Under the pieces are notes generated by a model, which did not search any database, was not told where the DNA came from, and saw nothing but the letters and a program-made list of their open reading frames with translations. This document shows positions 46,934 through 62,191 of a DNA stretch of 64,000 bases, one piece after another (positions within the stretch are counted from its first letter, which is position 1; the number at the start of each line of letters is the position of its first letter). Where the stretch lies: positions 75,833 to 139,832 of the forward strand of contig PBKJ01000027.1 of NCBI GenBank assembly GCA_002722135.1, in the 5' to 3' direction. Position numbers and translations under genes: made by a program. This DNA comes from Methanobacteriota archaeon. GTDB taxonomy: Archaea > Thermoplasmatota > Poseidoniia > Poseidoniales > Poseidoniaceae.

Positions 46934-47022
46934 GATGCTTCGCTCCTTCTCAAGCCCTTCAACCCCTCGGCCAAATTTGGCGCGTGGGCAGGACTCAAAA
47001 GGTCGGAGCGGGCCCTCCGGGC

Positions 47023-47337: not shown

Positions 47338-47355
47338 GCGTGCACACGGACGCCG

Positions 47356-47366
47356 TGTTTATATAC
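47356..47366 (+). promoter_or_regulatory. TATA box (TTTATATA) ~45 nt upstream of the lhr ATG
   Basis: Canonical archaeal TATA sequence in GC-rich context in the 72-nt spacer between ferredoxin and lhr. Confidence 0.45.
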
Positions 47367-47408
47367 TGAAGATGGCGGAGGCCACGCCACGGGCGTCGTG
47401 AGAAAAAC

Positions 47409-50400
47409 ATGCCAGAAATCACCTACCTCGAAACCTCCGATGATACGGAGGCCTTGGCGGCCCGCTTGAGCGAGCCTGTGCGACGGTGGTTCCTCGACAA
47501 GTTTCCCGACTTCACTGCCCCTCAGAAGATGGCCATCCCCGCCATCATGAACGGGGAACACCTGCTCCTGTGCAGCCCAACGGGGTCAGGAAAAACGCTG
47601 ACGGCTTTCCTCACGGTCATCGATGACTTGGTGCGTAAAGCGCTCGACGGCTCACTCAAGGACCAGGTGTACTGCATTTACATTTCACCGATCAAAGCCT
47701 TGGCGAATGACATCGAGCGGAACCTCCTCGGTCCGCTTGAAGAAATCAAGGCGCGCTATTTGCCGGACCGGGCCAAAGAAATCCGCGTGGGACTGCGGAC
47801 CGGCGACACCTCACAATCGGACCGCCAGAAGATGCTGAGGAAACCACCGCACATCCTCATCACCACCCCTGAAAGCATGGCCATCGCCGTCGGCTCCTCG
47901 AGGTTCCAACCCATCGTCTCGCGCGTCAAGTGGATGATCATCGACGAGCTGCACAGCCTGGTCCCAACCAAGCGTGGGGTGCACCTCAGCCTTACCTTGT
48001 CCTTCCTCGACACGCTGCTGAAGGACCCGGTTCAGCGCATCGGCATTTCCGCGACCATGGAACCCTTGGACACCGTGGCCGAATATTTGGTGGCCAGCGA
48101 TGACCGTGAATCCCGCGGAGAAGATCAGCGCATCATGGTCGCCAAAATTTCTGGCTCGAGGGAACTCGATCTGGACATCCTCATCACGCATCCCCGCTTT
48201 GCGGACCGCTCCGTGGCCCAGACCTTGGAGGCCAACGTGGAAGCCATCGCGGACCTGATCTCCGCCCACACCACCACACTGGTCTTCGCCAACACGAGGA
48301 AAATGACCGAGACGCTCGTCCAACGCCTCCGCCCCTTCTTGGGTGAACTCGTGGCTGGACATCACGGCTCGATGGACAAGAACATCCGGCTGGAGGTTGA
48401 ACGGAAACTGAAACTCGGCCATCTGCGGGCCGTGGTGACCTCGTCCTCTCTCGAGATGGGCATCGACATCGGTTCGGTTGATCTCGTCATCCAAGTCGGC
48501 TCCCCAGGCGACATCGCCACCGCCCTCCAGCGCATTGGCCGCGCGGGCCACCATGTTGGTGGCATCCCCCGTGCACGTTTCCTGCCGTCCTCCGTGGACG
48601 ACTTGCTCGAACTTGCCGCCCTCCAAGCGGCGATTCAAACGGGCGACATGGACCGCCTGTCTTTCCCACAAAACTGCCTTGACGTCGTCGCGCAGTTCCT
48701 CATTGGTTTGGTCATCAACGAGGAGCTTGACATCGACGAGGCCTACGAGATTGTCGTCAACGCATGGAGCTACAGGAATTTCGCGTACGACGATTTCATC
48801 GAAGTGCTGGACCTGTTGGAAGACGAGCGAAGAATCTGGGTCGACTGGGAAGAGAACACCTTCGGAAAGCGCGGATACTCCCGCATGATCTACTACACCA
48901 ACATCGGAACCATCGCACCGGACAACTCCTACCTTGTGTTCAACGCCGAGGGATCCATCCTCGGAAAGTTGTCCTCCTCCTTCGTGGCCAGCTTACGGAC
49001 CAGCGACGTCATTCTCCTCGGTGGCTCGACCTACCGCGTCAACACCATCCAAGGCACGCGTGTCAACGTCAGCAACGTCACGGGATACCGTCCGACCGTG
49101 CCCTCCTGGTCCGGTGAAGCGCGTTCCCGCTCGGCCGAATTGTCCTCGTCCTTGCTGGATTTGATCGGCCGGTGTGCGGTTGCGCTACGACGTGAAGTCG
49201 ACCCGCGCACGGTGCTCACTGAGGCCTATTCCATCGGTCGCGATTCGGCGGAAATCATCGCGCGCCACCTTGAAGAACACGTCCTCACGACTTTCCAAGT
49301 CCCCGACAAGGACCGTATCCTTGTTGAGCAAATCATCGGCGGCCCGCATCCGACCTACCTCATCACGACCTGCAGAGGACGCGGGTTCAACACGGCGCTT
49401 GGCTACTTCATGGCGGGACTGGCCGAGCAAGCCAGCATCCCGGTCATCGAGATGTCCTTCGATGAAAACGGACTGCTCCTCAAAACGGCCCAAGACGTGG
49501 ATCCAGGTGCGATGTACGAGGCCTTCTCGGCGGACAACCACATGGACGTCATCGAGCGGTACATCATCGGCACGCAAATTTTCGCCAAGCGATTCAGGGA
49601 AGTTGCCGGACGCAGCCTCATCATCCCCAAGCGGATTGGTGCGGAGGAAATCAGCCCGCAACAATTCCAGCAGCGCGCGGATGCTCTCCTCAATCGGCAC
49701 AGAACCATGGAGGGGTCCATCCTCATCCGTGAAGCAAAGAACGAGATCCTCTACGGCGACATCGACCTCGGAGGTCTGGAACAATTCCTGACCTCATGCC
49801 GCGAGGGACAGGCACGGATTGTTCACATCAGGACGACCTTGCCCAGCCGCATTGGCATGTCGCTGTACATGTCCGCGTTCGAGGACCTGATGTCCATGCG
49901 CACGAGGGCCTTCCTCGTCAAGGACATCGACCCGGCCATCCTCGAGCGCTTGCTCGGGAGGCGCTCTCTGGCCACGGAGATGACCAACGAGCAAATCAGT
50001 GACTATTACGCCAACAAAGTCCCAGTCCCTGTGGACGCGGACACCCTGTTGGCGCTTATGGAACACGGTGGTGGCCTCGACCGATCGTTCGGAAATCCAC
50101 TCTATAGAGAGAAACTCAGCGGCATTGACCACGAAGTAATCCGCGGTTGGGTCGAGGAATTGTGCACCGCAGGGCGAATCACGAAAATCGAAGCAACCGG
50201 CATGGAGGAACTCGACGGCAAGTGGTTCAGCACCTACATGGGCGAAATCCACGGCACCCTCGGGTGCCTTGCCGCCAACGGCGGACGGGACGTGGAAGAC
50301 CTCCTCACGCTGCACACCGCAGGGGTGACCTACCGCATGGCCTCCGCCTTCAGCGGAACAAAAGTCACGTCGTGGACGGACATGGAATTGGGCGACCCCC

Positions 50401-52697
50401 AGGAAGCCCTGCGCGTGAAGCTCATCGAGATGCTCGGCTCTGAAGGCCCACAGACCGCTGACCACCTGGAGGCGCGGTTGCCCTTCCCACGGTCGATGGT
50501 CGAGCGGACCATCCACCAACTTGAGACTCGAAACGTCATCAGCATCGGCTTCTTCACGCAAACCGAAGAGGCCGAGTTCATCCTCAAAGTCGACGAGCAC
50601 CGCATCACGGGCGGCGAAGAAGAGGTCATCGAGTACCGCTCCATCCAGAACATGATCCTCGACAAGTCGTTCACCATGTACGATGACGTCGACCAAGCCT
50701 TTGACCAGCACCTGCTCTTCCAGAAGCAGCAGGAACTGCTCTACCGGATCAACGATTTCAGGTTCAGCGATTGGAAGGACCTGCAGTTGGACCGTGACAT
50801 CGTCAACGGGCGGCTCCTGCACAACCGCCAAGGGTACACGACGCGAAGGAACCTTCCCATGCTGCTCGGACTCAAACCTGAGCCTTACATCGGTGCGATG
50901 GAGGCCGACCTGCTCGACCGCATCCTGCCCGGCGAGGAACCTCAGCGCTCCGAAATCGTGGCCATGTATCCGAAAGGCGACGAACACAAGCAACTCCAGC
51001 GTGACGTCAAGAATGGCCTCGCCAACCTCGAGCGCCAACTTTTGGTCGCGAAACAATTCGAAGAAGTTCCAGGACGTCGTCGACGTTTGTCCTTCTACCA
51101 CCGCGTCCACGAGGTCTACGACGGGTTGTCCTTCGAGGACGCTTTGTGCGAGGTCATCCGTCGCATCGGGCCCATCAAGGCCAACACGCTTCGGTTCTAC
51201 GTCAGCCGTGCCTACGAAGAATTGGTCATCGCCCTCAAGGCGCTGGAACAGGATGGACGCATCAGCCGCGTTACTACGCTGGTGCCAGAACCCGAGGATT
51301 TCTATTGCGCTCCTGAGGAAGTCGGGACCTTCCGTCGCGCTCGGCGAGAGGACCGGTCGATGCGCATCCTGACGCAATCCGACCCCTACGTCTCTCGTTT
51401 CATCTGGGAGGTCCGCGCCATGTTGGACCGCGGCTGGTACCTGCCCGTGTTCAAGGGCATCGACCCGGTTGGGAAGGTCCTGATGTTCAAGGTGAACGAC
51501 TACCTCGAAGTCAAGGACATTCAGATTCCCGCAGCTTACCTCGAGGAATTCTGCGAAGCCTTCGACGTGCTGCTCAACAACCACGCCGAACAACTGGTGG
51601 ACGTCGCGGTCCTCAGCGGCATCAACGGTCAACCGATCAACGAAGTGGAGCAGGTCTGGCGCGACGCGCTGGGGAGCATCGGGTTCAAGCTCGCCGGGGA
51701 GCGGATGATCCGAGGGGGCATCGTCGAAACCCAGCCACGGAACCTCGCCGATCGTGCCTTGTTCCACAAGCACCACCTGCACCAATCGGCACGGCTGGAG
51801 AACGAGTTCCTCGCCCTCAAGAGGATTCGAGAAGTCCGTGACGACTTCGCCCTCCGTGGACGTGCTGAGGTCTACCGCGTGGACCTGAAGAGCATGGCGA
51901 GTGCGAACCGACTGCACCAGGGCGTCAACCTCCGAGGCCACCAGTCCTGGGCCTCCTACGAGCACTTCCAGACCCTGTTGGCCATCCGGGGCATTGAACC
52001 CGATGAGGACCTTGCTGACGTGCTGGAGTTCTTCTCGACACATTCGGATCATGAGTTGTTCAAAGAACGCTATGCGCTGAGCCAATCGGAGTTCAGAAAA
52101 TTGGTTCAACCCCTCATCAGGTCCGGTCACATCGTCCAAGATTTCCGAGGAGGATTCAGGACGGTCACCGTGGATGCCTCGCTTGAACGGTCTGTTTTGC
52201 GCAAGGAGTACCTGCGCTCCCTCGTGGCCGATTTCCCCGTCATGACGATCAAGCAACTCTTGTCCTTGGCAGGCAGCCACTTCAAGCCGGAGGAGGTCAA
52301 AGCCATCCTGACGGAGTTTGAGGAAGATGAGACCCTCATCAAGGGCTTCCTGATCGATGACCTGCACGAGGTCTGTTGGGGGCGAAAGGACCTCCTCGCC
52401 GAGGCCAAGGAACTCCAACCGATGCGCGACTTCGTGCTTCCGCCCTCGGACCCCATCGCGCCGTACTTTGCTGGCACGCTCAAGGAAAAGTTCGGCTTTG
52501 GCAGCGCCTATCTGGTGTTCAAGAACGGCGAACCGGCTGCCGCCTTCAAGGCCAACACCAGAAACCGCGTCATCGAAGTCACGGACTATGAAGGGAAGGA
52601 AGACGCGTGGCGCATCGTCAAGGAATTCGCGTGGGAGCACCAGATGCCGCTCACGTCCGAGGTCAGGATTGGCGGTCGACGGTTGAGCAGTTCCTGA
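47409..52697 (+). CDS. lhr: Lhr-family large ATP-dependent DEAD/DEAH-box helicase with an ~850-aa C-terminal extension
   Basis: FTAPQKMAIPAIMNGEHLLLCSPTGSGKT (Q motif / Walker A), DELH box, ..ARAGH.., followed by WH/domain-4-like regions and a long C-terminal region without recognisable catalytic motifs; 1762 aa. Confidence 0.75.
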   Translation: MPEITYLETSDDTEALAARLSEPVRRWFLDKFPDFTAPQKMAIPAIMNGEHLLLCSPTGSGKTLTAFLTVIDDLVRKALDGSLKDQVYCIYISPIKALANDIERNLLGPLEEIKARYLPDRAKEIRVGLRTGDTSQSDRQKMLRKPPHILITTPESMAIAVGSSRFQPIVSRVKWMIIDELHSLVPTKRGVHLSLTLSFLDTLLKDPVQRIGISATMEPLDTVAEYLVASDDRESRGEDQRIMVAKISGSRELDLDILITHPRFADRSVAQTLEANVEAIADLISAHTTTLVFANTRKMTETLVQRLRPFLGELVAGHHGSMDKNIRLEVERKLKLGHLRAVVTSSSLEMGIDIGSVDLVIQVGSPGDIATALQRIGRAGHHVGGIPRARFLPSSVDDLLELAALQAAIQTGDMDRLSFPQNCLDVVAQFLIGLVINEELDIDEAYEIVVNAWSYRNFAYDDFIEVLDLLEDERRIWVDWEENTFGKRGYSRMIYYTNIGTIAPDNSYLVFNAEGSILGKLSSSFVASLRTSDVILLGGSTYRVNTIQGTRVNVSNVTGYRPTVPSWSGEARSRSAELSSSLLDLIGRCAVALRREVDPRTVLTEAYSIGRDSAEIIARHLEEHVLTTFQVPDKDRILVEQIIGGPHPTYLITTCRGRGFNTALGYFMAGLAEQASIPVIEMSFDENGLLLKTAQDVDPGAMYEAFSADNHMDVIERYIIGTQIFAKRFREVAGRSLIIPKRIGAEEISPQQFQQRADALLNRHRTMEGSILIREAKNEILYGDIDLGGLEQFLTSCREGQARIVHIRTTLPSRIGMSLYMSAFEDLMSMRTRAFLVKDIDPAILERLLGRRSLATEMTNEQISDYYANKVPVPVDADTLLALMEHGGGLDRSFGNPLYREKLSGIDHEVIRGWVEELCTAGRITKIEATGMEELDGKWFSTYMGEIHGTLGCLAANGGRDVEDLLTLHTAGVTYRMASAFSGTKVTSWTDMELGDPQEALRVKLIEMLGSEGPQTADHLEARLPFPRSMVERTIHQLETRNVISIGFFTQTEEAEFILKVDEHRITGGEEEVIEYRSIQNMILDKSFTMYDDVDQAFDQHLLFQKQQELLYRINDFRFSDWKDLQLDRDIVNGRLLHNRQGYTTRRNLPMLLGLKPEPYIGAMEADLLDRILPGEEPQRSEIVAMYPKGDEHKQLQRDVKNGLANLERQLLVAKQFEEVPGRRRRLSFYHRVHEVYDGLSFEDALCEVIRRIGPIKANTLRFYVSRAYEELVIALKALEQDGRISRVTTLVPEPEDFYCAPEEVGTFRRARREDRSMRILTQSDPYVSRFIWEVRAMLDRGWYLPVFKGIDPVGKVLMFKVNDYLEVKDIQIPAAYLEEFCEAFDVLLNNHAEQLVDVAVLSGINGQPINEVEQVWRDALGSIGFKLAGERMIRGGIVETQPRNLADRALFHKHHLHQSARLENEFLALKRIREVRDDFALRGRAEVYRVDLKSMASANRLHQGVNLRGHQSWASYEHFQTLLAIRGIEPDEDLADVLEFFSTHSDHELFKERYALSQSEFRKLVQPLIRSGHIVQDFRGGFRTVTVDASLERSVLRKEYLRSLVADFPVMTIKQLLSLAGSHFKPEEVKAILTEFEEDETLIKGFLIDDLHEVCWGRKDLLAEAKELQPMRDFVLPPSDPIAPYFAGTLKEKFGFGSAYLVFKNGEPAAAFKANTRNRVIEVTDYEGKEDAWRIVKEFAWEHQMPLTSEVRIGGRRLSSS

Positions 52698-52750
52698 AGG
52701 CCAAACCATCGCACCAACAGGTTTTGAAGACGCGGGGCCGTCTTCCCCCC

Positions 52751-55700
52751 ATGCACGACGGACGCCCCCGTGCGCTCGCCCTCGTGGCCCTCTTGGTGCT
52801 CTCCACCACCCTCGCCACCTTGAGCCCGACCGCCGGCGCGGAATCATCCTTGGACATCGAAGTGCTGGACACCAAGGTCAATCCAGCGAACAACCACACC
52901 TATCACCTGCTTTCTGCCTCGTCATGGACGGAAGCAGCGCAGGCCGCCCGTGGCCTCGAAGGCTTCCTCGTCACGGTGGACGACGAAGCAGAAAACACGT
53001 GGCTGCACGAAACGTGGGGCAACGACGGAAACGTCACGCGCCATTTGTGGACCGGCCTCAACGATGCCGCGGAAGAAGGCGTCTTTCGCTGGCATGACGG
53101 CACGCCCTACATCCACCGTCAGTGGGGCGAAGATCAACCGAGCATGACCGATGAAGAGGACTACGTGCACATCACGGGTCCAAACATGGGCTCCATCCAG
53201 CCCGGCGATTGGAACGACTTGGAGAACGACCCGCAGTACTTCCCGGTCTACGGCGTGGTGGAGCTTGGCCCCGGCGCGGATTTCGCCTTGCGCTTCGACG
53301 GTGAGGACGACCACGTCATCACGGCCGATGACACGTCCCTGCGCGCACCCTCCTCGGAGGGTGAGTTGACCATCGAAGCGAGGGTCTATCCCACAGATCT
53401 CGACGGCATCCACACCGTGGTGATGTACGGCGACTATGGATACGGTCTCTACCTCAATGACGGACGCCTGGGGTATTCCTCAGAATACAGCCTGTCCAAA
53501 AACGCCCTGAGCGAGGCCAACACCACGCTGAGCGCGGACACGTGGTCCACCGTGGCCGTCGCCGTGAACGCATCCACGGGAGGCACCTTCTTCCTGAACG
53601 GCGAGGCCATCGGCTCGTTTGACGCCACACAAGCAGAGATTCCAGCGGGTGACTTCGGCTCCAACGACTGTTACGATGCAGGCCTCGCCTGCGAGAACCT
53701 GGTGATAGGACGCCACGGCGCAGGCGCAGACCGCTACCACTTCGAAGGCATGATCGACCACGTCAGCATCAGTTCTGACGACCACCGAATCACCACAGAC
53801 GACGGTGGCATCGGCCTGGACAGCTCCGACGATCCGCTCTCCACCTGGACGTTTGGTGAAGGCGAGGGAGACCTCACCATGGACAACGCCGAGAGGAACG
53901 GCACGATTCATGGCGCGGCTTGGGTGATGCCAGATGGCTCGGTGGTGGCTCAGGCTTTGGAACTCGAAAACGGCGATGAACTCGCCATCGAGGACGTGAG
54001 CGCCGGCGACACGCTCCTCTTCTTTGCCGAACTCCCTGAATACACTCGGGACTTCAGCGTCCAAGCCTTCGCATGGTCAGCCGGCAAAGGGAAGGAAGAC
54101 GGCGATGCGGAGTTTAGCCTCTACCACGACATCGACCGCGTTCCTTCAGCGTGGTCGCACATGGATGAAGTCGAAAATTGGGGCTGGGGCGGTGTGTTCG
54201 CCTCCTACAGTTGGCCTGATGCCGGCGTACACTGGTTTGCACTGCAGGCAGACTCTGACCTTGACGAATTCAGCCTGTGGGTGGAGTGGGACGTCGCGGA
54301 AGCCCCGCCAACCTTGGAGGACATGATCGAACTCAAGCACGGCATTCCTGTCGCCAACCAAGACCTGCAAAGCCAGCGCGGGAATGAATTCGGCGACACA
54401 ATCCAGTATTACGTCAACGTCACCGAGCCGCTTGCCGATCTCGCGGTGGAAACGTACGGCGGTGACGGTAACGTCGAACTCGCCATCTCCTACGGGGGCC
54501 CACCGGACCCCTTCGGGCAATGGAGCGAGTGGGACGAGTGGGACATCATTGGAGCACCCGGTTTCCTTGGTGAGGACGATGCGGATGTCGAAGCCTACGA
54601 AGATTGGTCGATGGGGCCCGGGAACGACGAGGAGGTTCACCTCTACAACGTTGAACCCGGCACCTACTACGTGACGGCGTACACCTGGGGACGAGCCTTC
54701 GATTTCAGCATCGTCGCCGACCTGACCCCAATGCCGACCAACGGCGAGGCCTCCGACGCCATTGCCCTGACCGCAGGCGTTCCGTACGGCCCCTTCTCCG
54801 GCTACGACGGTCTCAGCCAATACTTCTCCATCGACGTGCCGGAAGGCACAGAACGGCTGGAAGTTCGCCTGGACGACGGCGTCGGAGAAGCCGACCTCCA
54901 TCTTGCCTACGCGTCCACGCCGACGGAGACGGTCTACGACCACCGGAGCACGTCGCCTGGCTCGAACGACATGGTCGCGTTCAACGACCCCACACCGGGA
55001 ACGTGGATGATTCTCGTCCACACCGAGCGCGTGTTCAGCGGCACCACCATCCTCGCGGAGTTTGCCGACCGGTACGTCTGGGATTGGGACGGTGAGCCCA
55101 TCCAGTTGTTCAATGGAGAGGCCATTGTGGGCATCGAGGCAGAAGAAGGCACGGTGTTGGAATTCTTTGGCATCCTCGAGGAACCCGCCTCACCGCTTGA
55201 GGTCACGACCTGGGGCGAAGATGGGGTCATCGAACTCGAAGGCGAAGCGGAGCCCTACGATTGGGACCTGATCTTCGAGGAAGGGCCTCGTGGACGGCAA
55301 TGGGGCGAAGCCACGTGGATCGAAGGCGACGGCGCCAATTGGTTCTGGTACGTTGACATCGCCGCAAACGGGCGTTTTGACGTGACCGTTGAGGTGGTTG
55401 AAGACCTCAGTGCACTCGGCATCATGGCGACGTGGGTTGAGGCCGATTTGCCGCCCGTGGACGACGACGATGACGTTGACAGCGACGAACCCTTTGATCC
55501 TCAAGGGTGCGAAGACCGAACGATCGAGTGGTTCAGCGAACTTGATGCCAACCGGGACGGGTTTGTCAGCCTCGATGAGCACCGGCCGCACCCCGATACG
55601 GGCACACCCGGAGAGGACCTCGACCGCAACCAAGACGAACGCCTCCAAATGGCCGAACTGGAAGCCGATTTGTGCTCCTGTGCACAAGAATTCCTCTTCA

Positions 55701-56302
55701 TTTGGGAACAAGCCGACGAAGCCGATGCCATCGCGCTCGAGGATTTGGAAACGGTGTCTTACCTGAACGAGATTGATTTGGAGGCCATGGACCGAGACGG
55801 CGACGGCGACATCGACGACCGTGAGGCTGAGCGTCACACCCTGGCCTGTTCAACGACCTACGACCCGATCGACCTCGACGGTGACGGTGTCCCCAACGAC
55901 GACGACGCGTTCCCGGAAGACCCCGACGAGAGCGAAGACTCGGACGGCGACGGCGTGGGCGACAATGCAGACCTTGTCGCGGGTGTCAACGACAGCATGG
56001 TGACCTACGGAGCCGCGGCGGCCGTCCTCGGTCTGGTCATTGTCTTGCTGCTGACCATGTTGCGCCGAGGACCCGGTGGTGCACAGCCGGTTGACCCGTG
56101 GGCGGAACTCGGGGACGAGAAGCGCATGCCAGACCTCTTCGAACCCGCAACCATGGCTCAGGAACCGTCCATGGCGTTTGATTCAGCTCCATCTTCTGCG
56201 AGCAACAACCCCGTACAGCCTGCACCTGAAGTCCCAGGCATGACCGATCTGCCGCCGCCGTTGAACGATGCGTTGCCAAGCGAACCACTCGAGTGGCGAT
56301 GA
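52751..56302 (+). CDS. Large secreted surface protein: C-type-lectin-like domain + LamG/ConA-like domain + 3 PPC (pre-peptidase C-terminal) domains + EF-hand-like Ca sites + TSP3-like repeats + TM anchor + Pro-rich cytoplasmic tail
   Basis: Signal peptide MHDGRPRALALVALLVLSTTLATLSPTAGA; CTLD-like WTGLNDAAEEGVFRWHDG...WNDLEND; LamG-like block (LRFDG...LNGEAIGSF); PPC-like blocks (YYVNVTE..., YFSIDVPEG...ADLHLAY..., ...); DANRDGFVSLDE / DRDGDGDIDD loops; DLDGDGVPNDDDAFPEDPDESEDSDGDGVGDNAD; TM AAAAVLGLVIVLLLTML + RRG + 75-aa tail. The track ORF begins at 52607 inside lhr; start moved to the signal-peptide Met. Confidence 0.6.
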   Translation: MHDGRPRALALVALLVLSTTLATLSPTAGAESSLDIEVLDTKVNPANNHTYHLLSASSWTEAAQAARGLEGFLVTVDDEAENTWLHETWGNDGNVTRHLWTGLNDAAEEGVFRWHDGTPYIHRQWGEDQPSMTDEEDYVHITGPNMGSIQPGDWNDLENDPQYFPVYGVVELGPGADFALRFDGEDDHVITADDTSLRAPSSEGELTIEARVYPTDLDGIHTVVMYGDYGYGLYLNDGRLGYSSEYSLSKNALSEANTTLSADTWSTVAVAVNASTGGTFFLNGEAIGSFDATQAEIPAGDFGSNDCYDAGLACENLVIGRHGAGADRYHFEGMIDHVSISSDDHRITTDDGGIGLDSSDDPLSTWTFGEGEGDLTMDNAERNGTIHGAAWVMPDGSVVAQALELENGDELAIEDVSAGDTLLFFAELPEYTRDFSVQAFAWSAGKGKEDGDAEFSLYHDIDRVPSAWSHMDEVENWGWGGVFASYSWPDAGVHWFALQADSDLDEFSLWVEWDVAEAPPTLEDMIELKHGIPVANQDLQSQRGNEFGDTIQYYVNVTEPLADLAVETYGGDGNVELAISYGGPPDPFGQWSEWDEWDIIGAPGFLGEDDADVEAYEDWSMGPGNDEEVHLYNVEPGTYYVTAYTWGRAFDFSIVADLTPMPTNGEASDAIALTAGVPYGPFSGYDGLSQYFSIDVPEGTERLEVRLDDGVGEADLHLAYASTPTETVYDHRSTSPGSNDMVAFNDPTPGTWMILVHTERVFSGTTILAEFADRYVWDWDGEPIQLFNGEAIVGIEAEEGTVLEFFGILEEPASPLEVTTWGEDGVIELEGEAEPYDWDLIFEEGPRGRQWGEATWIEGDGANWFWYVDIAANGRFDVTVEVVEDLSALGIMATWVEADLPPVDDDDDVDSDEPFDPQGCEDRTIEWFSELDANRDGFVSLDEHRPHPDTGTPGEDLDRNQDERLQMAELEADLCSCAQEFLFIWEQADEADAIALEDLETVSYLNEIDLEAMDRDGDGDIDDREAERHTLACSTTYDPIDLDGDGVPNDDDAFPEDPDESEDSDGDGVGDNADLVAGVNDSMVTYGAAAAVLGLVIVLLLTMLRRGPGGAQPVDPWAELGDEKRMPDLFEPATMAQEPSMAFDSAPSSASNNPVQPAPEVPGMTDLPPPLNDALPSEPLEWR

Positions 56303-56321
56303 GCGCACACCAACCGTCACG

Positions 56322-57266
56322 TCATGACGACTTCGGTTTCAAGGCGAGTTGAATGGGTCGCATCAAGCGTAGAACGTGTGCGTGAAGCTCCGGGAGCAGT
56401 CTGAACATCACGAGCGCCAGTCCGTACATGGCCAACAAAGCGACCACGCGAGCGGCGTAGGTGTGCGCGAATTCGAACATGCGGAGACCAAAGACGTCGA
56501 CTGAGCCATGGATGGCGTGCAGCCAAACGATGCCTGCGTTTCGGAAAATGTTGAGCACGTGAATCAGCGGCAGGGTGAGCAGGAGCGCGCGAACGCGGCG
56601 CTTCCATGGCATGTCCAGCACGGCGATGGCGCCGACAAAGACGATCATGGACTGCAGCGCGGTGCAGGCCAGGACGATGTTGACGCCCACAGAGGTGCCG
56701 TCAGCCCAGATGAGATCTGTTTGGATGGGGTACTCGCCGAAGGGCTGGCTCCAGAACCACACGTTGCCCTCCCACTCTTGCCAGAGCACCTGCCCCTCGG
56801 GTGTGCTGACGTAGGTTTCCCCAACGTAGACGTCACCCGCCCCCGTGAATCGGAGCATCAAGGCGGATTGCGAGGCGACGGCGACGATGGCCAGCCGACT
56901 GAGCCAGGGCACGTGATAGGTCGCAAGATAGGGCAAGCCTGCGAGCGCGACCGCCCCCTTCAGCCAGCGAAGGGCCGATGCATCACGTGCATCTTCCACC
57001 TTCCATTCCCACCACGCAAGGCCGATGGACGCCGGGAGGGCTGCACTTAGCATGACGGTCAGGACAGGGTCACGTTCCTGCCAGTAGCCGTCAGCCATCA
57101 GAAAAAAACCAACACCAACCAGCGGCCATGCGATGAGGCTGACGCGATGCAAGCTGCCCCGTTTCGACAACGAAACACCGAGGAGAACCATGCCAAAGGC
57201 AAGCAAGCCGATGGATTCCACCGAGGCGCCCGCCATGACCTGAACCCCGTTCGCGTCTGTCTTCAA
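56322..57266 (-). CDS. Archaeosortase/exosortase-family transpeptidase-like membrane protein
   Basis: 7-8 TM helices; candidate catalytic Cys (IVLACTALQ) with Arg 41 residues downstream in an NIFRNAG context, matching the Cys173/Arg214 spacing reported for ArtA; further conserved Arg residues follow. TTG start in track; internal ATG at ~57236. Confidence 0.55.
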   Translation of the reverse strand: MKTDANGVQVMAGASVESIGLLAFGMVLLGVSLSKRGSLHRVSLIAWPLVGVGFFLMADGYWQERDPVLTVMLSAALPASIGLAWWEWKVEDARDASALRWLKGAVALAGLPYLATYHVPWLSRLAIVAVASQSALMLRFTGAGDVYVGETYVSTPEGQVLWQEWEGNVWFWSQPFGEYPIQTDLIWADGTSVGVNIVLACTALQSMIVFVGAIAVLDMPWKRRVRALLLTLPLIHVLNIFRNAGIVWLHAIHGSVDVFGLRMFEFAHTYAARVVALLAMYGLALVMFRLLPELHAHVLRLMRPIQLALKPKSS

Positions 57267-57336
57267 CCCTCCTCGTTGAAATCCATCGGAGCAGGGCAGT
57301 GGCCAACCTCAAGGGCCGGTGTGGAGAAGGTGTGGC

Positions 57337-57948
57337 ATGGACGGGCCCATTGCGCACGCGCTGCGCCCGTTTCCCGGTGGTCGCGAGGATGCTCCAATCG
57401 CGTTTCTCGACCGCGATGGCGTGCTGAACATGAGCCTCGATGGGTACGTGAACCACCCGCACGAATTGGCGCTCCTTCCCGGAACTGAACGAGCGATGCG
57501 TGTGCTCAGGGACGAAGGCTTCCTTCTGTGCGTTGTCACCAATCAGTCCGCTGTCGGACGAGGGGTGTGGGACGACGAACGGTTGCACCAGATCCATGAC
57601 CGGTTCGATGCGATGCTCGCCGCTGCAGGAGCGCAACCCGACCTCATCTTGGCCTGCCCTCACGTGCCTTGGGCCGGTTGCGGATGCCGCAAGCCGAGGA
57701 CTGGCATGCTGAGCCTTGGTGCATCGCTGCTCCGCTCAGAGCACGGCTTTGGTGTGCTTCGGCAACGCATGAACAACGTCGAGGCCCCCCCGAACAATGA
57801 CGATGTCATGGTCGGTGATCGCGGCAGCGACATCAGAGCCGGCTTGGCCTTCGGTGCACGTGCGTTCCACGCTGTGCGCGACCTTGGACTCGATTCGTTG
57901 CTGCCTCGTTTGTTGGATTGGGACGACCCCGGGGACAGGGTGAGATGA
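57337..57948 (+). CDS. HAD-IIIA phosphatase, GmhB (D,D-heptose 1,7-bisphosphate phosphatase)/HisB-N-like
   Basis: AFLDRDGVLN (motif I), VVTNQS (motif II), CPHVPWAGCGCRKPRTGML Zn-binding insert plus motif III, GDRGSD (motif IV). Confidence 0.6.
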   Translation: MDGPIAHALRPFPGGREDAPIAFLDRDGVLNMSLDGYVNHPHELALLPGTERAMRVLRDEGFLLCVVTNQSAVGRGVWDDERLHQIHDRFDAMLAAAGAQPDLILACPHVPWAGCGCRKPRTGMLSLGASLLRSEHGFGVLRQRMNNVEAPPNNDDVMVGDRGSDIRAGLAFGARAFHAVRDLGLDSLLPRLLDWDDPGDRVR

Positions 57949-59136
57949 GTGGGTTGGCTTGGCCTGGACGACACCGACCACCTCGGCGGAGGGTGCACGA
58001 CGTGGACGATGCACCAGCTGCTCTCGTCCTTGCCCCCGGAAGTCTCCGTCGCCGGTGATCCGTGCCTCGTTCGGTTGTACCCCATGGCCAAGGGCAGAAC
58101 CCGTGGAAACGCGGCTCTGGCCGTTGAGCTCGACGTTCGTCTCAATCCCTCAGCGTGGAAGAACTGGCTCGAACAGTATTGGGAAGCGCATCTTGCCACC
58201 TTGGCGGGACAGTGGACGCCGTCCACGCATGCTTCGCGAACACAGGTCCCAAGCGATCCAGGTCTGGTGTGGTTTGAATCAAAGCCCTCTCCAGAATTCT
58301 ATAGAAAAGCAGTTACCGGAGAAGTCGCCCTTGACGCCGTACCTGAAGCAACGTGGTCGGCAGGAGGCCTGGGCATCATCGGCGCGACGGCGGCTGTCGC
58401 CTGGCCCTTGGACGTGTCCACATGGGAAGGCATCGCATGGCGGCAAGGCCACGACACACCGCGCCGGTTGGACGAGGGGATCATGGTACGCCTCGATCGC
58501 GACCCACGTTTGGTGGCGTGCCGGGACCCAAGAAAGGGACGCAGTCTGCTGGCACCACGTGGCACGTCGCCGGTCTTGTTTGGCCTAAGAGGCACAGATC
58601 GAAGCGCCGTTGAGCAAGGCGTCAGGGATCTTGTCGAGGCGCAGGGGACAGAGGACGTGGCCGCGGTTTGCATCTTCCAAACCAACCAAGGAAGCGGAGA
58701 CCACTTACCGCCTGCCCTCGAAGCAACCGTGGAAAAAATCCACATCTTGCGCGGAGGACATGTCGCCCTTGAGACCTCTGTGGGCACGTGGCTGGCCTTT
58801 GCACCGTCCGATGAACTACGTCACCTTGCCGCTCAACTGACCGCCGGTGACGTGGTGCGAGGCCTTGGTCTTGTTAGCCAAAGGGAAGGACGGGAGGGGC
58901 TCCACCTCGAGGCCTTGAATCACGTGTCCGGACCAATACGAAACAGATCGCGACCGCTGTGTCCAACCTGTGACGTCCGCATGAAATCCGCAGGCCGAGG
59001 CCAAGGGCTGCGTTGCCCGTCGTGCACCCATCGTGAGCCGGACCGCTGGGTCGGTACGCCGGTGACGCCGAGCGGATGGGTGCAACCACCGCTGGATCGG
59101 CGGCGGCATCTCGCCCCTGACCTCGGCGCGAGATGA
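57949..59136 (+). CDS. tiaS: tRNA(Ile2) 2-agmatinylcytidine synthetase TiaS
   Basis: N-terminal GLDDTDH..GGCTTW (TiaS kinase-domain signature), OB-like middle, C-terminal Zn ribbon CPTCDVRM...CPSCTH; GTG start abutting the upstream stop. Confidence 0.65.
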   Translation: MGWLGLDDTDHLGGGCTTWTMHQLLSSLPPEVSVAGDPCLVRLYPMAKGRTRGNAALAVELDVRLNPSAWKNWLEQYWEAHLATLAGQWTPSTHASRTQVPSDPGLVWFESKPSPEFYRKAVTGEVALDAVPEATWSAGGLGIIGATAAVAWPLDVSTWEGIAWRQGHDTPRRLDEGIMVRLDRDPRLVACRDPRKGRSLLAPRGTSPVLFGLRGTDRSAVEQGVRDLVEAQGTEDVAAVCIFQTNQGSGDHLPPALEATVEKIHILRGGHVALETSVGTWLAFAPSDELRHLAAQLTAGDVVRGLGLVSQREGREGLHLEALNHVSGPIRNRSRPLCPTCDVRMKSAGRGQGLRCPSCTHREPDRWVGTPVTPSGWVQPPLDRRRHLAPDLGAR

Positions 59137-59202
59137 CCAAACGGTCGTGCGCTGGTTCCAATTCACCGGCATCTTCCTAACAGACCATGCACACCTCCGC
59201 AC

Positions 59203-59445
59203 ATGGCCGATGAAACCGGCGTTGACGTCGTGACCGTGCTTGCGGGACTTGTGTTCCTTGGATTGCTCGCCTTCGTGGTGTGGAAGGCCCGACAGAACCG
59301 AGCCGCTGCCTTGGCCAAGACCGGCCCGAAGGTGGCCGGAGAGGACCCGTTGGAAGGCGGGGCTCGACGACCAGAAGCCTTCGATGAACCGACGGAAGAA
59401 GACCTCGAAATGATGGGCGACTTGCTCAATGAGGACGAGGATTAG
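59203..59445 (+). CDS. Small single-TM protein with acidic C-terminal tail
   Basis: 80 aa; TM VVTVLAGLVFLGLLAFVVW then ...EEDLEMMGDLLNEDED. Confidence 0.3.
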   Translation: MADETGVDVVTVLAGLVFLGLLAFVVWKARQNRAAALAKTGPKVAGEDPLEGGARRPEAFDEPTEEDLEMMGDLLNEDED

Positions 59446-60023
59446 GCGAAGTCCAAGCCTTCGTCCACGATGCGTACGCGCTGCGGCTCATCCGGGCCCT
59501 CGAGCAGGCGAACACCGCTTGGCTCCACCGTCAACCGCCACGAGGCAAATCCTGCCTCGATGAGCTGGTCTTCGGATCGCACGCGGAACCCGTCCTCTGC
59601 GTCCATGTCGGTACCAAGTTTCGAGGTCGCCAGCAGGGTGATTTCACCAAGACCCGACGCAAGATTGCTCAGAGCGTCAAAGGAGGCCTTTGGAATTCGG
59701 CCGGTCGCGGGAGCCCAGTCGTCCATGACCACCAAACCCACACCAGGCAGCGACGTCGCGGCTTGCTGGAGCGATTTCGTCACCAAATCCATTCTACCGA
59801 CCAAATTCATGGCGTGAAAACGGGTGGCCACCGTGGGTGGAAGCCCACCAAGGACTTGGGAAAAGCGGGTTGGGTCTGGCATCTCGGGCGCCGCCCAGAG
59901 CACCCGCTCCCCGTCCTCAAGCACATGCTTGGCCATCTGCAAGGCCAGGCTTGTGGCCCCTGCCCCTGCGGCGCCGGCAAGGTGAACCTTGGTTGCCTGG
60001 AACGCGGGGCGCCATGCTGCCAT
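59442..60023 (-). CDS. RecA-superfamily (KaiC/RadB-like) ATPase-fold protein with degenerate P-loop
   Basis: GAAGAGATSLALQMA in place of GxxGxGK(T/S) (no Lys); hhhhDD Walker-B-like VVMDDW; 193 aa. Confidence 0.4.
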   Translation of the reverse strand: MAAWRPAFQATKVHLAGAAGAGATSLALQMAKHVLEDGERVLWAAPEMPDPTRFSQVLGGLPPTVATRFHAMNLVGRMDLVTKSLQQAATSLPGVGLVVMDDWAPATGRIPKASFDALSNLASGLGEITLLATSKLGTDMDAEDGFRVRSEDQLIEAGFASWRLTVEPSGVRLLEGPDEPQRVRIVDEGLDFA

Positions 60024-60100
60024 GTGCCGCGTTGGTTGACGAAGGAGAAAGACGCTTCCGGTGTCGCAACGCTCATGATGTGGCAGCGGGAGACCGGAAC

Positions 60101-60316
60101 ATGGCCGAGGAAACCAAGAAGGCAGAACGCATCCCCCGTCGCCCTGCTCCGGAATTCACAGAGGTCGGCTCCTTTAGCGAGGCCATCAAGACGCACGGCC
60201 TCATCGGTACCGCGGTCAACGACAAGAACCAGTACGGCCCCGTGGGCATGATGGTGTTGCTCTTCATCGTGGCCGCCATCACCTCCCTCGGACTTCTGCT
60301 GATTCGCTCGTCCTGA
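60101..60316 (+). CDS. Small tail-anchored membrane protein (hypothetical)
   Basis: 71 aa from an internal ATG of track ORF 59837..60316; basic N-terminus and C-terminal TM MMVLLFIVAAITSLGLLLI. Confidence 0.3.
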   Translation: MAEETKKAERIPRRPAPEFTEVGSFSEAIKTHGLIGTAVNDKNQYGPVGMMVLLFIVAAITSLGLLLIRSS

Positions 60317-60354
60317 AGCGCAAGGGCTATCCTCCTCTCGACCCAAGTTGGGTC

Positions 60355-60795
60355 ATGGAACAGGGCCATCCACCCGCGACGATGGCTTTTACCGATCGGC
60401 GATGGACGATCATGGCCGCCCTCTTGGGGTCCAACACGGCCGTGATGCTGGTGCATGGGCTTCAGCAGGAGATGAACCCAAGCGTCACACGGGAGTTTGC
60501 CTTGACCCTGATCGCGGTGACGTTGCCGTTCCAGGCGGTGTACTTCATGATCCACACCTACGCGGATTCCTTCGCTCAAAACCTCGCTCCGGCGGAACGG
60601 CGGACGCTGGAGCGCCTGTCCACCGTGTGCCAAATCATCGCCTACGCCTCCCTGCTTGGCTTGGCCATCCTGTGGAGCAACGTCTCTCCATTCGTGGGCG
60701 GTGGATTCCTTGTCGCCTCCTTTTGCGCCCTCCTGATGGTCCGTATGGCCATGCGAGAGGCGCGTTCCTCCTCGGAGGCCGCACGTTCCTCCTGA
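60355..60795 (+). CDS. Hypothetical 4-TM membrane protein
   Basis: 146 aa, hydrophobic helices, no recognised family. Confidence 0.3.
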   Translation: MEQGHPPATMAFTDRRWTIMAALLGSNTAVMLVHGLQQEMNPSVTREFALTLIAVTLPFQAVYFMIHTYADSFAQNLAPAERRTLERLSTVCQIIAYASLLGLAILWSNVSPFVGGGFLVASFCALLMVRMAMREARSSSEAARSS

Positions 60796-60841
60796 ACATC
60801 GGCCTGCGAAGGTTGATGGGGCGGCCACAACGCCGAACGTC

Positions 60842-62191
60842 ATGGCCTTCTGTCCGTTGGATTACCGCTACGGCTGCCAAGACTTCAAGCAAATTTGGTC
60901 GGAAGACGGCCGCCATGAGCGCCAACTCGAAGTCGAGCGTGCGTTGGTTTGGGCTCACCAGCAGATGGGCCGTGTCTCGGCTGAGGACTATGCCGTGATC
61001 GAGAAGATCGCGGTACCGAACGTGGTCACCAAGCAAAGGGTCAGCGAAATCGAGGCAGAAACGCGGCACGACATCATGGCCTTGACCAAGGCCATGGCCG
61101 AAGCCGCGGGCGACGCAGGCTGGTGCGTGCACTTGGGTGCGACCTCCAACGACATCGTTGACACCGCCGTCGGGCTGCAGCTTCGCGACAGCATCGTCCT
61201 TCTGCGAAAGGCCCTGTGCGACCTCATCGCGGTGTGCGCGGACGTCGCCGAACGCGAACGCGACACCGTGATGCTCGGCCGAACGCACGGTCAAGCCGCC
61301 GTCCCCATCACCTTCGGACTGAAAGCCGCCGTCTGGCTGGACGAACTCCGCCGTCACCTCGTCCGTCTCGACGAAGCCAGCCCACGCATCGCGGTCGGGA
61401 AATTCCTCGGTGCCGTGGGCACGGGCGCTGCACAGGGCGAAGGTGCCCGTGAACTCCAGCGGCTCATCCTCGAGCACCTCGGCTTGGGCGTCCCGCTCGC
61501 CACCACCCAAGTCGTCGGGCGCGACCGGTACATCGAGTACGTCCACTGGATGGGCAACACGGCGACGACCTGCCAGAAGGTCTTGACCGAGGTTCGAAAC
61601 CTCCAGCGTTCGGAAATCGCTGAAGCGGGTGAGGGCTTTGACGTCAAGAAGCAGGTGGGTTCCTCGACGATGGCCCACAAGAAGAACCCCATCACGAGTG
61701 AGAATGCAAGCGGGCTCGCCCGCATCGTACGGTCGTTCATCGCGCCAAGCCACGAGAACGCCATCCTTTGGCACGAGCGTGACCTGGCCAATTCCAGCGC
61801 GGAGCGCTTCACGCTCTCGCACGCCTCGGCTTTGTGCGAGGACGTGCTGGCCAAGACGGCCAAGGTCCTGCGCGGCATGTGGGTGGATGCCGCACGTTGC
61901 CTGAAGAACATCGAGGATCAGCGCGGTTTGGTCATGGCCGAGAAGGTGATGATCGAATTGACCGCGCACGGCATCGGCCGTGACGAAGCCCACGAGATCC
62001 TGCGTACCGCCTCCTTCACCGCGGTGGAAACCGGCGAACACCTGATGGACATCTGCATGCGAACCCCTGAGATCACCGCCGTGTTCAGCGTCGAGGACCT
62101 CGAGGCGATGTTCAATCCCGCCAACCACATCGGCGTCTCAGGCGAACTGGTCGACGAAGCCGTCGCGCTGGCGCGCCAAGCCATCGCTTGA
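60842..62191 (+). CDS. purB: Adenylosuccinate lyase
   Basis: YRYG N-terminus, fumarate-lyase signature GSSTMAHKKNP, 449 aa. Confidence 0.85.
   Translation: MAFCPLDYRYGCQDFKQIWSEDGRHERQLEVERALVWAHQQMGRVSAEDYAVIEKIAVPNVVTKQRVSEIEAETRHDIMALTKAMAEAAGDAGWCVHLGATSNDIVDTAVGLQLRDSIVLLRKALCDLIAVCADVAERERDTVMLGRTHGQAAVPITFGLKAAVWLDELRRHLVRLDEASPRIAVGKFLGAVGTGAAQGEGARELQRLILEHLGLGVPLATTQVVGRDRYIEYVHWMGNTATTCQKVLTEVRNLQRSEIAEAGEGFDVKKQVGSSTMAHKKNPITSENASGLARIVRSFIAPSHENAILWHERDLANSSAERFTLSHASALCEDVLAKTAKVLRGMWVDAARCLKNIEDQRGLVMAEKVMIELTAHGIGRDEAHEILRTASFTAVETGEHLMDICMRTPEITAVFSVEDLEAMFNPANHIGVSGELVDEAVALARQAIA

What the first reader, a model, noticed from the sequence alone, without database searches (positions are those of the whole stretch)
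52751..56302. Cysteine-free C-type-lectin-like domain fused to LamG, PPC and Ca-binding modules in an archaeal surface protein
The N-terminal domain follows the CTLD consensus (WIGLND-like WTGLNDAAEEG, WxWxDG, WND...ND) but lacks the canonical disulfide cysteines. It is combined with a concanavalin-A/LamG-like domain, three PPC domains and EF-hand-like loops. This domain combination suggests a glycan-binding adhesin or substrate-capture protein.
Basis: partly seen in the sequence, partly recalled or inferred. Interest (0 to 1): 0.6.

Follow-up and report, generated by a model that had tools for sequence, protein, structure and literature searches.

The report
Conserved surface lectin-like protein of marine archaea
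This gene encodes a large membrane-anchored surface protein, found in at least 211 species of the abundant ocean archaea called Marine Group II, whose outermost domain is a real but disulfide-free C-type lectin domain; that type is common in prokaryotes, so the find is solid but not unusual.

Summary
Window 52751-56302 (+) encodes a 1183-aa, very acidic (pI 4.05) type I membrane protein. Its parts, in order:
- signal peptide
- C-type lectin-like domain (CTLD; Pfam Lectin_C, 30 bits against a cutoff of 22.6)
- LamG domain
- two Pfam PPC domains plus at least one more PPC-like β-sandwich
- EF-hand region
- thrombospondin-type-3-like (TSP3) calcium repeats
- transmembrane helix
- disordered cytoplasmic tail

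The CTLD has no cysteine. The four canonical positions are A66, Y138, N159 and V170. WIGL-like, "EDY" and WND motifs are kept, and EPN/QPD is replaced by an invariant QP followed by S, G or T.

Being cysteine-free is not special. Of 268 near-full-length CTLD copies in the best 149 database representatives, 161 have no cysteine. The two of these proteins that carry source names come from Nitrosopumilus and Verrucomicrobiales.

The organism is a Marine Group II archaeon (Poseidoniales). Relatives occur in 211 species-level genomes, and the 80 best loci examined carry full-length orthologs. The gene order is fixed: Lhr helicase, this gene, archaeosortase A, HAD phosphatase, TiaS. The CTLD and TSP3 modules are the best conserved parts.

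It is most likely a calcium-stabilised ligand-binding adhesin or receptor. Glycan binding is plausible but untested. I rate it a new member of a known kind, of moderate interest.

The parts
52751..56302 (+). Whole gene: 1183-aa acidic type I membrane protein (pI 4.05; 249 D+E against 44 K+R; 7 N-X-S/T sequons)
   Evidence: Full-length orthologs at 42-92% identity.
52751..52837 (+). Signal peptide (residues 1-29, hydrophobic core 6-28, ...TAGA|ESS)
   Evidence: Hydropathy. The N-terminal hydrophobic segment is present in orthologs (consensus). The cleavage site is inferred.
52838..53278 (+). Cysteine-free C-type lectin-like domain (residues 30-176). Canonical cysteine positions are A66, Y138, N159, V170. 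Motifs: WTGL 100-103, QPS 129-131, EDY 136-138, WND 154-156.
53279..53785 (+). LamG / concanavalin-A-like domain (residues 177-345) with invariant C307 and C314
   Evidence: Pfam Laminin_G_3, 50 bits on the isolated piece. AF2 β-sandwich at pLDDT 75-89. Foldseek hits to pentraxin, laminin LG and neurexin LNS.
53786..54391 (+). Linker plus β-sandwich region (residues 346-547) with no Pfam hit. Parts of it resemble the PPC-like domain at 777-902.
   Evidence: AF2 strands. No Pfam hit. hhalign partial matches to 777-902 at probability 96% and 85%.
54392..54736 (+). PPC domain 1 (residues 548-662)
   Evidence: Pfam PPC 29.5 bits, cutoff 25.9. AF2.
54737..55078 (+). PPC domain 2 (residues 663-776)
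   Evidence: Pfam PPC 47.6 bits. PDB hit 2luw metalloprotease PPC. Foldseek hit to the ColG collagen-binding domains.
55079..55456 (+). Third, divergent PPC-like β-sandwich (residues 777-902)
   Evidence: No Pfam hit. hhalign against PPC1: probability 97.3%, E 1.9e-11, 97 columns.
55493..55855 (+). Helical EF-hand-like calcium-binding region (residues 915-1035) with four invariant cysteines (920, 975, 977, 1033)
   Evidence: EF-hand Pfam hits below cutoff here and above cutoff in orthologs. AF2 helices. Invariant cysteines.
55856..55984 (+). Thrombospondin-type-3-like calcium-binding repeats (residues 1036-1078; DLDGDGVPNDDDAFPEDPDESEDSDGDGVGDNAD)
   Evidence: No Pfam TSP_3 hit on this protein itself. 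It aligns at E 3e-14 to the Pfam-recognised TSP_3 repeats plus transmembrane helix of the window's GDSL-lipase protein. 74% mean pairwise identity.
55997..56068 (+). Transmembrane helix followed by RRG (residues 1083-1106)
   Evidence: Hydropathy. AF2 helix 1081-1104.
56069..56299 (+). Cytoplasmic low-complexity tail (residues 1107-1183). Most orthologs end in a conserved LMGM..G.E.IEYP..SG..W.R......W motif. This lineage keeps only 'LEWR'.
   Evidence: Alignment. pLDDT below 40. No Pfam hit.
56322..57266 (-). Context only: archaeosortase A gene, convergent, with its stop 19 nt from the lectin gene's stop
   Evidence: NCBIfam TIGR04125 109.5 bits, cutoff 75. Position conserved in nearly all orthologous loci.

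Best explanation
The gene encodes a conserved cell-surface protein of Marine Group II archaea (Poseidoniales). It is made with a signal peptide and stays anchored by one C-terminal transmembrane helix.

**Proposed layout.** A stalk rises from the membrane: calcium-binding TSP3-like repeats, an EF-hand region and three to four PPC-type β-sandwich domains. The stalk carries a membrane-distal head made of a LamG domain and an N-terminal C-type lectin-like domain.

**The CTLD.** It belongs to the disulfide-free prokaryotic branch of the Lectin_C family. It keeps the fold-defining residues and most of the acidic and amide residues that bind calcium in animal lectins.

**Proposed mechanism.** The head binds an external ligand, probably a sugar polymer on algal cells, particles or exopolymers, in a calcium-dependent way. 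The protein would then act as an adhesin or capture receptor.

**Shown:** domain identities, topology signals, conservation and synteny.
**Inferred:** membrane-distal position of the head, calcium dependence, a glycan ligand, and the adhesive role.
For: - **Domains:** Pfam hits above cutoff for Lectin_C, Laminin_G_3 and PPC.
- **CTLD homology:** profile against PDB at E about 1e-11 for single CTLDs and 1e-50 for multi-CTLD receptors.
- **Putative calcium-site residues are conserved:** D105 29/30, E109 (E or D 30/30), Q129-P130 30/30, E136 26/30, D137 27/30, N155-D156 30/30, E158 29/30.
- **Conservation pattern:** the CTLD is the best-conserved large domain (72% against 22-55% for most others), as expected for a site under functional constraint.
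- **Topology:** signal peptide plus a single transmembrane helix.
- **Calcium modules:** EF-hand hits above cutoff in orthologs. TSP3 repeats align to Pfam-recognised ones at E 3e-14.
- **Distribution:** relatives in 211 species-level genomes. The 80 best loci examined carry full-length orthologs. In loci long enough to show the flanks the gene order is fixed, apart from an in-situ inversion in two loci and two inserted genes in Poseidonia.
- **Shared anchor:** a second surface protein in the window, a GDSL lipase, uses the same TSP3-TM-RRG-tail anchor. This marks it as a general way of displaying ectoproteins in this organism.
- **Literature:** published genomics already infers an adhesive, particle- and phytoplankton-associated lifestyle for the group and notes widespread 'thrombospondin' genes (PMC6461757).
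Against: - The sugar-specificity triplet is QP[S/G/T], not EPN or QPD, so one canonical calcium and sugar ligand is missing. Many animal CTLDs without that triplet bind proteins or other ligands (general knowledge).
- The long-loop region that would form the site is modelled with pLDDT below 50 in both predictions.
- There is no expression, localisation or binding data. No paper in the searchable library mentions this protein.
- A single-copy gene at a fixed position, evolving about as slowly as its housekeeping neighbours, fits a structural envelope role as well as an adhesin.
Confidence: 0.5

Rival explanations
1. It is a structural component of the cell envelope: an S-layer-like, coat or glycocalyx-organising protein. 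The CTLD and LamG domains would bind the cell's own surface glycans or neighbouring subunits rather than external material.
For: - Relatives in 211 species-level genomes. All 80 loci kept come from different assemblies and sit at one syntenic position.
- Evolves at about the same rate as neighbouring housekeeping genes: 44% identity against 45% for TiaS and 43% for HAD.
- Sits next to archaeosortase A, the enzyme that processes S-layer glycoproteins in haloarchaea (PMC7157517 listed).
- Large, very acidic and rich in calcium sites, like many archaeal envelope proteins.
- Weak Pfam S-layer hit, E 0.044, far below cutoff.
Against: - No PGF-CTERM or other sortase signal. NCBIfam finds nothing on the protein, and the transmembrane helix is followed by a tail of 75-130 aa.
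- The pairing with archaeosortase is convergent. In the Poseidonia locus read (L032) two unrelated genes lie between them, and other Poseidonia loci show a similar 1.5-2.3 kb gap.
- S-layer proteins usually diverge fast, whereas the outermost domain here is the most conserved.
Confidence: 0.2
2. The CTLD is a non-lectin ligand binder. It would recognise a protein, lipid, mineral or other non-sugar target, as many CTLDs lacking EPN/QPD do. The protein would then serve as a receptor, for example in cell-cell contact or as a virus-exposed receptor.
For: - The third residue of the specificity triplet is S, G or T in all 30 orthologs, never N or D.
- The nearest prokaryotic cysteine-free CTLDs mostly keep GEPNN or GQPDN, so this family has specifically changed the site.
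Against: - Four of five site-2 positions and the site-1 acidic residues remain conserved.
- The adjacent LamG domain and the CBM-like folds also point to carbohydrate ligands.
Confidence: 0.17
3. It is a substrate-capture partner for membrane-anchored exo-hydrolases. It would hold polymeric substrate (protein, lipid or polysaccharide aggregates) at the surface for enzymes displayed on the same type of anchor.
For: - PPC domains are typical of secreted proteases, and the Foldseek hit to the ColG collagen-binding domains points to substrate-binding modules.
- A GDSL lipase in the same window carries the same TSP3-TM anchor.
- The window also encodes an X-Pro dipeptidyl peptidase and an OPT oligopeptide transporter.
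- The published view of the group is that it degrades high-molecular-weight protein and lipid (PMC6336850).
Against: - The protein has no catalytic domain.
- No hydrolase gene is linked to it in the conserved neighbourhood.
- This reading overlaps heavily with the adhesin explanation and cannot be separated from it by sequence.
Confidence: 0.1
4. It is the variable target protein of a diversity-generating retroelement, the previously described context for C-type-lectin folds in archaea.
For: Archaeal DGR variable proteins adopt a C-type lectin fold (PMC5006420 and PMC4372165, listed).
Against: - The CTLD is the most conserved part of the protein, with 44 of 147 columns invariant across 38 species.
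- No direct repeat of 40 nt or more exists in 45000-64000, so there is no template/variable repeat pair.
- The neighbours are housekeeping genes, not a reverse transcriptase.
- The domain matches Pfam Lectin_C.
Confidence: 0.01

Closest known systems
Prokaryotic cysteine-free Lectin_C (PF00059) domains, e.g. the tandem-CTLD proteins of Nitrosopumilus sp. (QMU54492.1) and Verrucomicrobiales (MCP5528023.1, also carrying PPC)
   Same: Same domain family and same replacements at the four canonical cysteine columns (A, Y/F, D/S/N, V/I). Same WIGL, 'EDY' and WND motifs and the same extended β3-β4 loop. 38-46% identity over the whole domain.
   Different: Those proteins usually carry 2-7 tandem CTLDs with GEPNN or GQPDN triplets. 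This family has one CTLD with QP[S/G/T]. The CTLD is fused to LamG, PPC, EF-hand and TSP3 modules, a transmembrane helix and a cytoplasmic tail. The family is a syntenic ortholog found across Poseidoniales.
Animal C-type lectin receptors of the mannose-receptor family and DC-SIGN/collectin CRDs
   Same: Significant sequence homology (E down to about 1e-11 per domain), the same fold core, and type I membrane display of a CTLD, as in the mannose-receptor family.
   Different: No disulfides. QPS replaces EPN/QPD. The accompanying domains differ. The closest relatives are prokaryotic, not animal.
Thrombospondin-like / 'thrombospondin' genes reported as widespread in Poseidoniales (Rinke et al. 2019, PMC6461757)
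   Same: Contains TSP type-3-like calcium repeats and a LamG-type domain. It is extracellular and thought to be adhesive. This family may be among the genes that paper counted. That link is an inference, not checked.
   Different: The paper does not describe a CTLD, this architecture or its synteny. True thrombospondins have a different domain order, are cysteine-rich and are secreted oligomers.
Archaeosortase A substrates (PGF-CTERM proteins such as the Haloferax S-layer glycoprotein)
   Same: Large acidic archaeal surface protein with a C-terminal hydrophobic anchor, encoded next to artA.
   Different: No PGF motif. The transmembrane helix is followed by a long cytoplasmic tail. No NCBIfam PGF-CTERM hit.

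Membership tests
C-type lectin-like domain (Pfam PF00059 Lectin_C) | Sequence match to the family model above the curated threshold | tested here: met
   30.0 bits against cutoff 22.6. Orthologs score 36-40 bits. Profile against PDB CTLDs at E about 1e-11.
C-type lectin-like domain (Pfam PF00059 Lectin_C) | CTLD fold (two helices, two β-sheets, long-loop region) | tested here: met
C-type lectin-like domain (Pfam PF00059 Lectin_C) | Four canonical cysteines forming two disulfides (a feature of classical animal CTLDs) | tested here: not met
   A66, Y138, N159 and V170 occupy those columns. No cysteine at any CTLD column in 30 orthologs. The same holds for 161 of 268 near-full-length CTLD copies in the best 149 database representatives. 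The feature therefore defines the animal subgroup, not the Pfam family.
C-type lectin-like domain (Pfam PF00059 Lectin_C) | WIGL-type hydrophobic core motif | tested here: met
   W100-T/I-G102-L103, with W, G and L invariant.
Calcium-dependent carbohydrate-recognition domain (true C-type lectin) | EPN or QPD triplet plus WND and the intervening Glu (calcium site 2) | tested here: inconclusive
   Q129-P130 invariant, third residue S20/G6/T4. E136 26/30. W154-N155-D156 invariant. Four of five ligand positions are kept.
Calcium-dependent carbohydrate-recognition domain (true C-type lectin) | Measured calcium-dependent sugar binding | not testable with these tools
   Needs recombinant protein with a glycan array or ITC.
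LamG / concanavalin-A-like (PF13385) | Model match above threshold and β-sandwich fold | tested here: met
   44-50 bits against 27.6. AF2 pLDDT 75-89. Foldseek hits to pentraxin, laminin LG and neurexin.
PPC (PF04151, pre-peptidase C-terminal domain) | Model match above threshold | tested here: met
   Two domains at 29.5 and 47.6 bits against 25.9. A third (777-902) only by hhalign to PPC1, probability 97%.
EF-hand | Model match above threshold; DxDxDG...E loop | tested here: inconclusive
   Below cutoff in this protein (17-20 bits against about 25). Orthologs pass. A canonical loop, DRDGDGDIDDRE, is readable in the sequence.
Thrombospondin type 3 repeat (PF02412) | Model match above threshold | tested here: inconclusive
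   No Pfam hit on this protein. The segment aligns at E 3e-14 with repeats that Pfam does recognise in the window's GDSL-lipase protein.
Archaeosortase A substrate (PGF-CTERM, TIGR04126) | PGF motif, transmembrane helix and short basic tail at the extreme C-terminus | tested here: not met
   No NCBIfam hit. The pre-TM sequence is ...NDSMVTYGAAAA... and 77 residues follow the helix. A regex scan found no PGF-CTERM ORF anywhere in the window.
DGR variable protein (CLec fold) | Variable repeat with a nearby template repeat and reverse transcriptase; hypervariable ligand site | tested here: not met
   No direct repeats of 40 nt or more in 45000-64000. The CTLD is the most conserved domain.

The most novel reading that the evidence does not exclude
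This family is the one lectin-type transmembrane receptor shared across Marine Group II archaea. An invariant, non-canonical QP[S/G/T]/WND calcium site recognises a specific algal or particle glycan. The conserved cytoplasmic C-terminal motif (LMGM..G.E.IEYP..SG..W.R......W, present in most lineages) couples that recognition to an intracellular partner. It would be an archaeal counterpart of animal type I CTLD receptors and the molecular basis of the group's association with phytoplankton and particles.
Probability: 0.1. Interest if true: 0.7.

Novelty: new member of a known kind. Interest (0 to 1): 0.35.

Why it matters
Marine Group II archaea are described as the most abundant planktonic archaea in ocean surface waters and have no cultured representative (PMC6461757). 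How they attach to particles or phytoplankton is inferred only from archaella, flotillin and 'thrombospondin' genes (PMC6461757).

A surface protein with a strongly conserved lectin-type head, found in 211 species-level genomes, is a concrete candidate for that interaction. It is also a possible handle for capturing or labelling these cells.

The analysis also shows that disulfide-free CTLDs are the common prokaryotic form of this domain. That removes the main reason the finding looked unusual.

Tried and rejected
1. **Archaeosortase substrate.** The adjacent gene is archaeosortase A. The protein has no PGF-CTERM and no NCBIfam hit, and a regex scan found no PGF-CTERM ORF in the window. In the Poseidonia locus read (L032) two unrelated genes separate the pair.
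2. **DGR target.** Rejected: no repeats, and the CTLD is highly conserved.
3. **Cytoplasmic tail motif.** Pfam found nothing. A database search with a 14-sequence profile returned only 14 short fragments of 34-76 aa, probably mis-called ends of the same gene. Nothing was learned about other carriers.
4. **Literature.** Searches for Marine Group II, Poseidoniales or MGII with lectin or C-type lectin gave no relevant paper. A broad six-term search and a PF00059 search were unproductive. Two Marine Group II genomics papers do not mention the protein.
5. **Structure prediction of the CTLD loops.** Both AF2 runs left the long-loop region below pLDDT 50, so the geometry of the ligand site could not be judged. 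The alignments held only orthologs.
6. **Family assignment (MGIIa or MGIIb).** Not settled. The window's clade (59-92% identical relatives) is about equally distant (about 44%) from proteins labelled Poseidonia and Thalassarchaeaceae.


Full report
**What is there**

The ORF at 52607-56302 (+) has an in-frame ATG at 52751, which gives a 1183-aa protein. That start leaves 53 nt after the upstream Lhr-type helicase gene, and the closest orthologs match residues 1-1183. The protein is extremely acidic: pI 4.05, with 249 Asp+Glu against 44 Lys+Arg. It has seven N-X-S/T sequons, an N-terminal hydrophobic signal-like segment (residues 6-28) and one further hydrophobic helix at about 1083-1106 followed by RRG. 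This is the layout of a type I membrane protein with an ectodomain of about 1050 aa and a 77-aa cytoplasmic tail.

**Domains**

Pfam gives Lectin_C at residues 56-156 (30.0 bits, cutoff 22.6), Laminin_G_3 at 183-342, and PPC with two stretches. EF-hand hits fall below cutoff. Scanning pieces separately confirms two PPC domains (29.5 and 47.6 bits) and finds nothing for 430-570, 770-905 or the tail.

Profile-profile comparison of sub-alignments shows that 777-902 is a divergent PPC-like domain (probability 97.3%, E 1.9e-11 against PPC1). Parts of 400-547 resemble it too.

EF-hand models pass Pfam's cutoff in orthologs, and a textbook loop, DRDGDGDIDDRE, is readable here. The membrane-proximal segment DLDGDGVPNDDDAFPEDPDESEDSDGDGVGDNAD gets no Pfam TSP_3 hit of its own. 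It does align at E 3e-14 with the Pfam-recognised TSP_3 repeats and transmembrane helix of another surface protein in the window.

A full-length AlphaFold2 model (mean pLDDT 66.8) agrees with this picture. It shows a LamG sandwich, a chain of β-sandwiches, a helical EF-hand region, a transmembrane helix and a disordered tail. Its Foldseek hits are pentraxin, laminin-G and neurexin domains, the ColG collagen-binding (PPC-type) domains and CBM40.

**The CTLD and its cysteines**

The protein's six cysteines are at 307, 314, 920, 975, 977 and 1033. None lies in residues 30-176, and all six are invariant across orthologs. None of 30 orthologs has a cysteine at any CTLD column.

I aligned the domain with cysteine-rich and cysteine-free relatives. 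The four canonical cysteine columns correspond to A66, Y138, N159 and V170. Other motifs are conserved as follows:
- The WIGL-type motif is W100-T/I-G-L.
- 'EDC' is 'EDY'.
- WND (154-156) is invariant.
- EPN/QPD is replaced by invariant Q129-P130 followed by S (20), G (6) or T (4).
- Residues at positions I take to correspond to the other calcium ligands of animal lectins are conserved: D105, E109, E136, D137 and E158. That correspondence rests on my knowledge of mannose-binding protein and was not computed against it.

**Is it really a CTLD?**

Yes. A profile of 38 orthologous domains hits single-domain PDB CTLDs (collectin placenta 1, CEL-I, mincle, DC-SIGN) at E of about 1e-9 to 1e-11, over up to positions 20-143 of 147. 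It hits multi-CTLD receptors at E down to 1e-50.

**Is cysteine-free unusual?**

No. An exhaustive HMMER search of 1.84 billion representatives with the domain finds 7387 proteins at E ≤ 1e-3 and 2080 at E ≤ 1e-10. In the best 149, 161 of 268 near-full-length CTLD copies contain no cysteine.

The proteins fall into two classes. One has about 3.2 Cys per 100 residues and resembles animal mannose receptors. The other is essentially cysteine-free. Named members of the cysteine-free class come from Nitrosopumilus and Verrucomicrobiales.

Members of that class carry the same A, Y/F, D/S/N and V/I replacements, usually with GEPNN or GQPDN. What sets this family apart is the QP[S/G/T] triplet and the architecture, not the missing disulfides.

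**Organism and distribution**

The neighbouring genes include TiaS, which makes an archaeal tRNA modification, and archaeosortase A. Full-length orthologs (about 1170-1260 aa, 42-92% identity) carry names such as Candidatus Poseidoniales, Poseidonia and Thalassarchaeaceae. Sources annotate them as 'lectin-like protein', 'pre-peptidase C-terminal domain-containing protein' or hypothetical.

A scan of one genome per species finds a relative in 211 genomes, and the 80 best loci are all full length. The gene order Lhr(+) - lectin(+) - ArtA(-) - HAD(+) - TiaS(+) is kept in nearly every locus long enough to show it. There are two kinds of exception:
- Two loci have the lectin gene inverted in place.
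- Several Poseidonia loci have 1.5-2.3 kb of extra sequence between the lectin gene and artA. In the one locus read (L032) this holds two unrelated genes.

Domain-wise mean pairwise identity is highest for the TSP3-like repeats (74%) and the CTLD (72%). It is 64% for PPC2, 55% for LamG, 37% for the EF-hand region and 22% for the tail.

**Mechanism**

The best-supported reading is a calcium-stabilised stalk that displays a CTLD-LamG head for ligand binding, that is, an adhesin or capture receptor. The strong constraint on the head and on its putative calcium-site residues supports a specific ligand.

A glycan is the most likely ligand, given the family, the adjoining LamG domain and the CBM-like folds. 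The altered triplet leaves a non-sugar ligand a live alternative. A structural envelope role also fits the fixed gene position, the wide distribution and the neighbour-like rate of evolution.

The link to archaeosortase A looks like conserved synteny rather than a substrate relationship. There is no PGF-CTERM, the transmembrane helix is followed by a long tail, and the two genes are convergent and separable. A diversity-generating retroelement is excluded.

**Comparison with what is known**

No paper in the searchable library connects Marine Group II with a C-type lectin. [quoted passage not shown] All the domain types are known and automatically annotated. The family itself is uncharacterised.

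**Verdict**

The finding is a new member of a known kind, of moderate interest because of the ecological importance of the host group and the unusually well-conserved head domain.

Noticed in passing
window 32700-35573 (+): A 957-aa protein with a GDSL lipase domain (77.6 bits) and Pfam TSP_3 repeats. It ends in the same arrangement as the lectin protein: TSP3 repeats, a transmembrane helix, RRRG and an acidic, proline-rich cytoplasmic tail of about 100 aa. 'TSP3-TM-RRG-tail' looks like a reusable anchor for surface proteins in this organism.
   Followed up: partly
window 56322-57266 (-): Archaeosortase A (TIGR04125, 109.5 bits), convergent with the lectin gene and only 19 nt from its stop. 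A regex scan found no PGF-CTERM substrate candidate in the 64-kb window, so its substrates lie elsewhere.
   Followed up: partly
orthologs of the lectin protein (alignment A1/A4); window 56069-56299: Most orthologs end in a conserved cytoplasmic motif of about 35 aa: LMGM..G.E.IEYP..SG..W.R......W, with 12 invariant positions in 14 sequences. It has no Pfam match. The window's lineage has lost all but 'LEWR', and another clade (P0008-P0027) has a different ending (...VLDDLFD).
   Followed up: partly
L011 and L012 (loci): In two species the lectin gene alone is inverted in place. It then lies directly downstream of archaeosortase A and runs in the same direction, instead of converging on it. 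The flanking genes keep their order.
   Followed up: no
L032 9673-11657 (and similar gaps in L025, L034, L048, L062, L073, L074, L082): Poseidonia-type genomes carry extra sequence between the lectin gene and archaeosortase A. In L032 this is two ORFs of 380 and 240 aa. By eye they resemble an Old-Yellow-Enzyme-type flavin oxidoreductase and a glutathione-S-transferase; I did not test this.
   Followed up: partly
window residues 307, 314, 920, 975, 977, 1033 of the lectin protein (53669-55851): All six cysteines of the protein are invariant across orthologs: two in the LamG domain and four in the EF-hand region. The ectodomain therefore may use disulfides or metal sites elsewhere, even though the CTLD has none. 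One ortholog gives a weak SPARC calcium-binding-region hit (E 0.058). Most orthologs also have a GAGCDC motif in LamG that this lineage has lost (GAGADR).
   Followed up: no
window 47409-52697 (+): An unusually long Lhr-type helicase (1762 aa, 72-98% identical across the order). The helicase model covers only about the first 850 residues, so the C-terminal half is uncharacterised here.
   Followed up: no
L005, L047, L049 (record titles): Three contigs carrying this archaeal gene block are deposited under bacterial names: Salinimicrobium sp., Verrucomicrobiales bacterium and Salipiger bermudensis. These are probably mis-binned or mislabelled assemblies.
   Followed up: no
window 1905-3893 (+) and 25268-27226 (+): An X-Pro dipeptidyl peptidase (S15) and an OPT oligopeptide transporter. 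Both fit the peptide-scavenging lifestyle described for Marine Group II.
   Followed up: no
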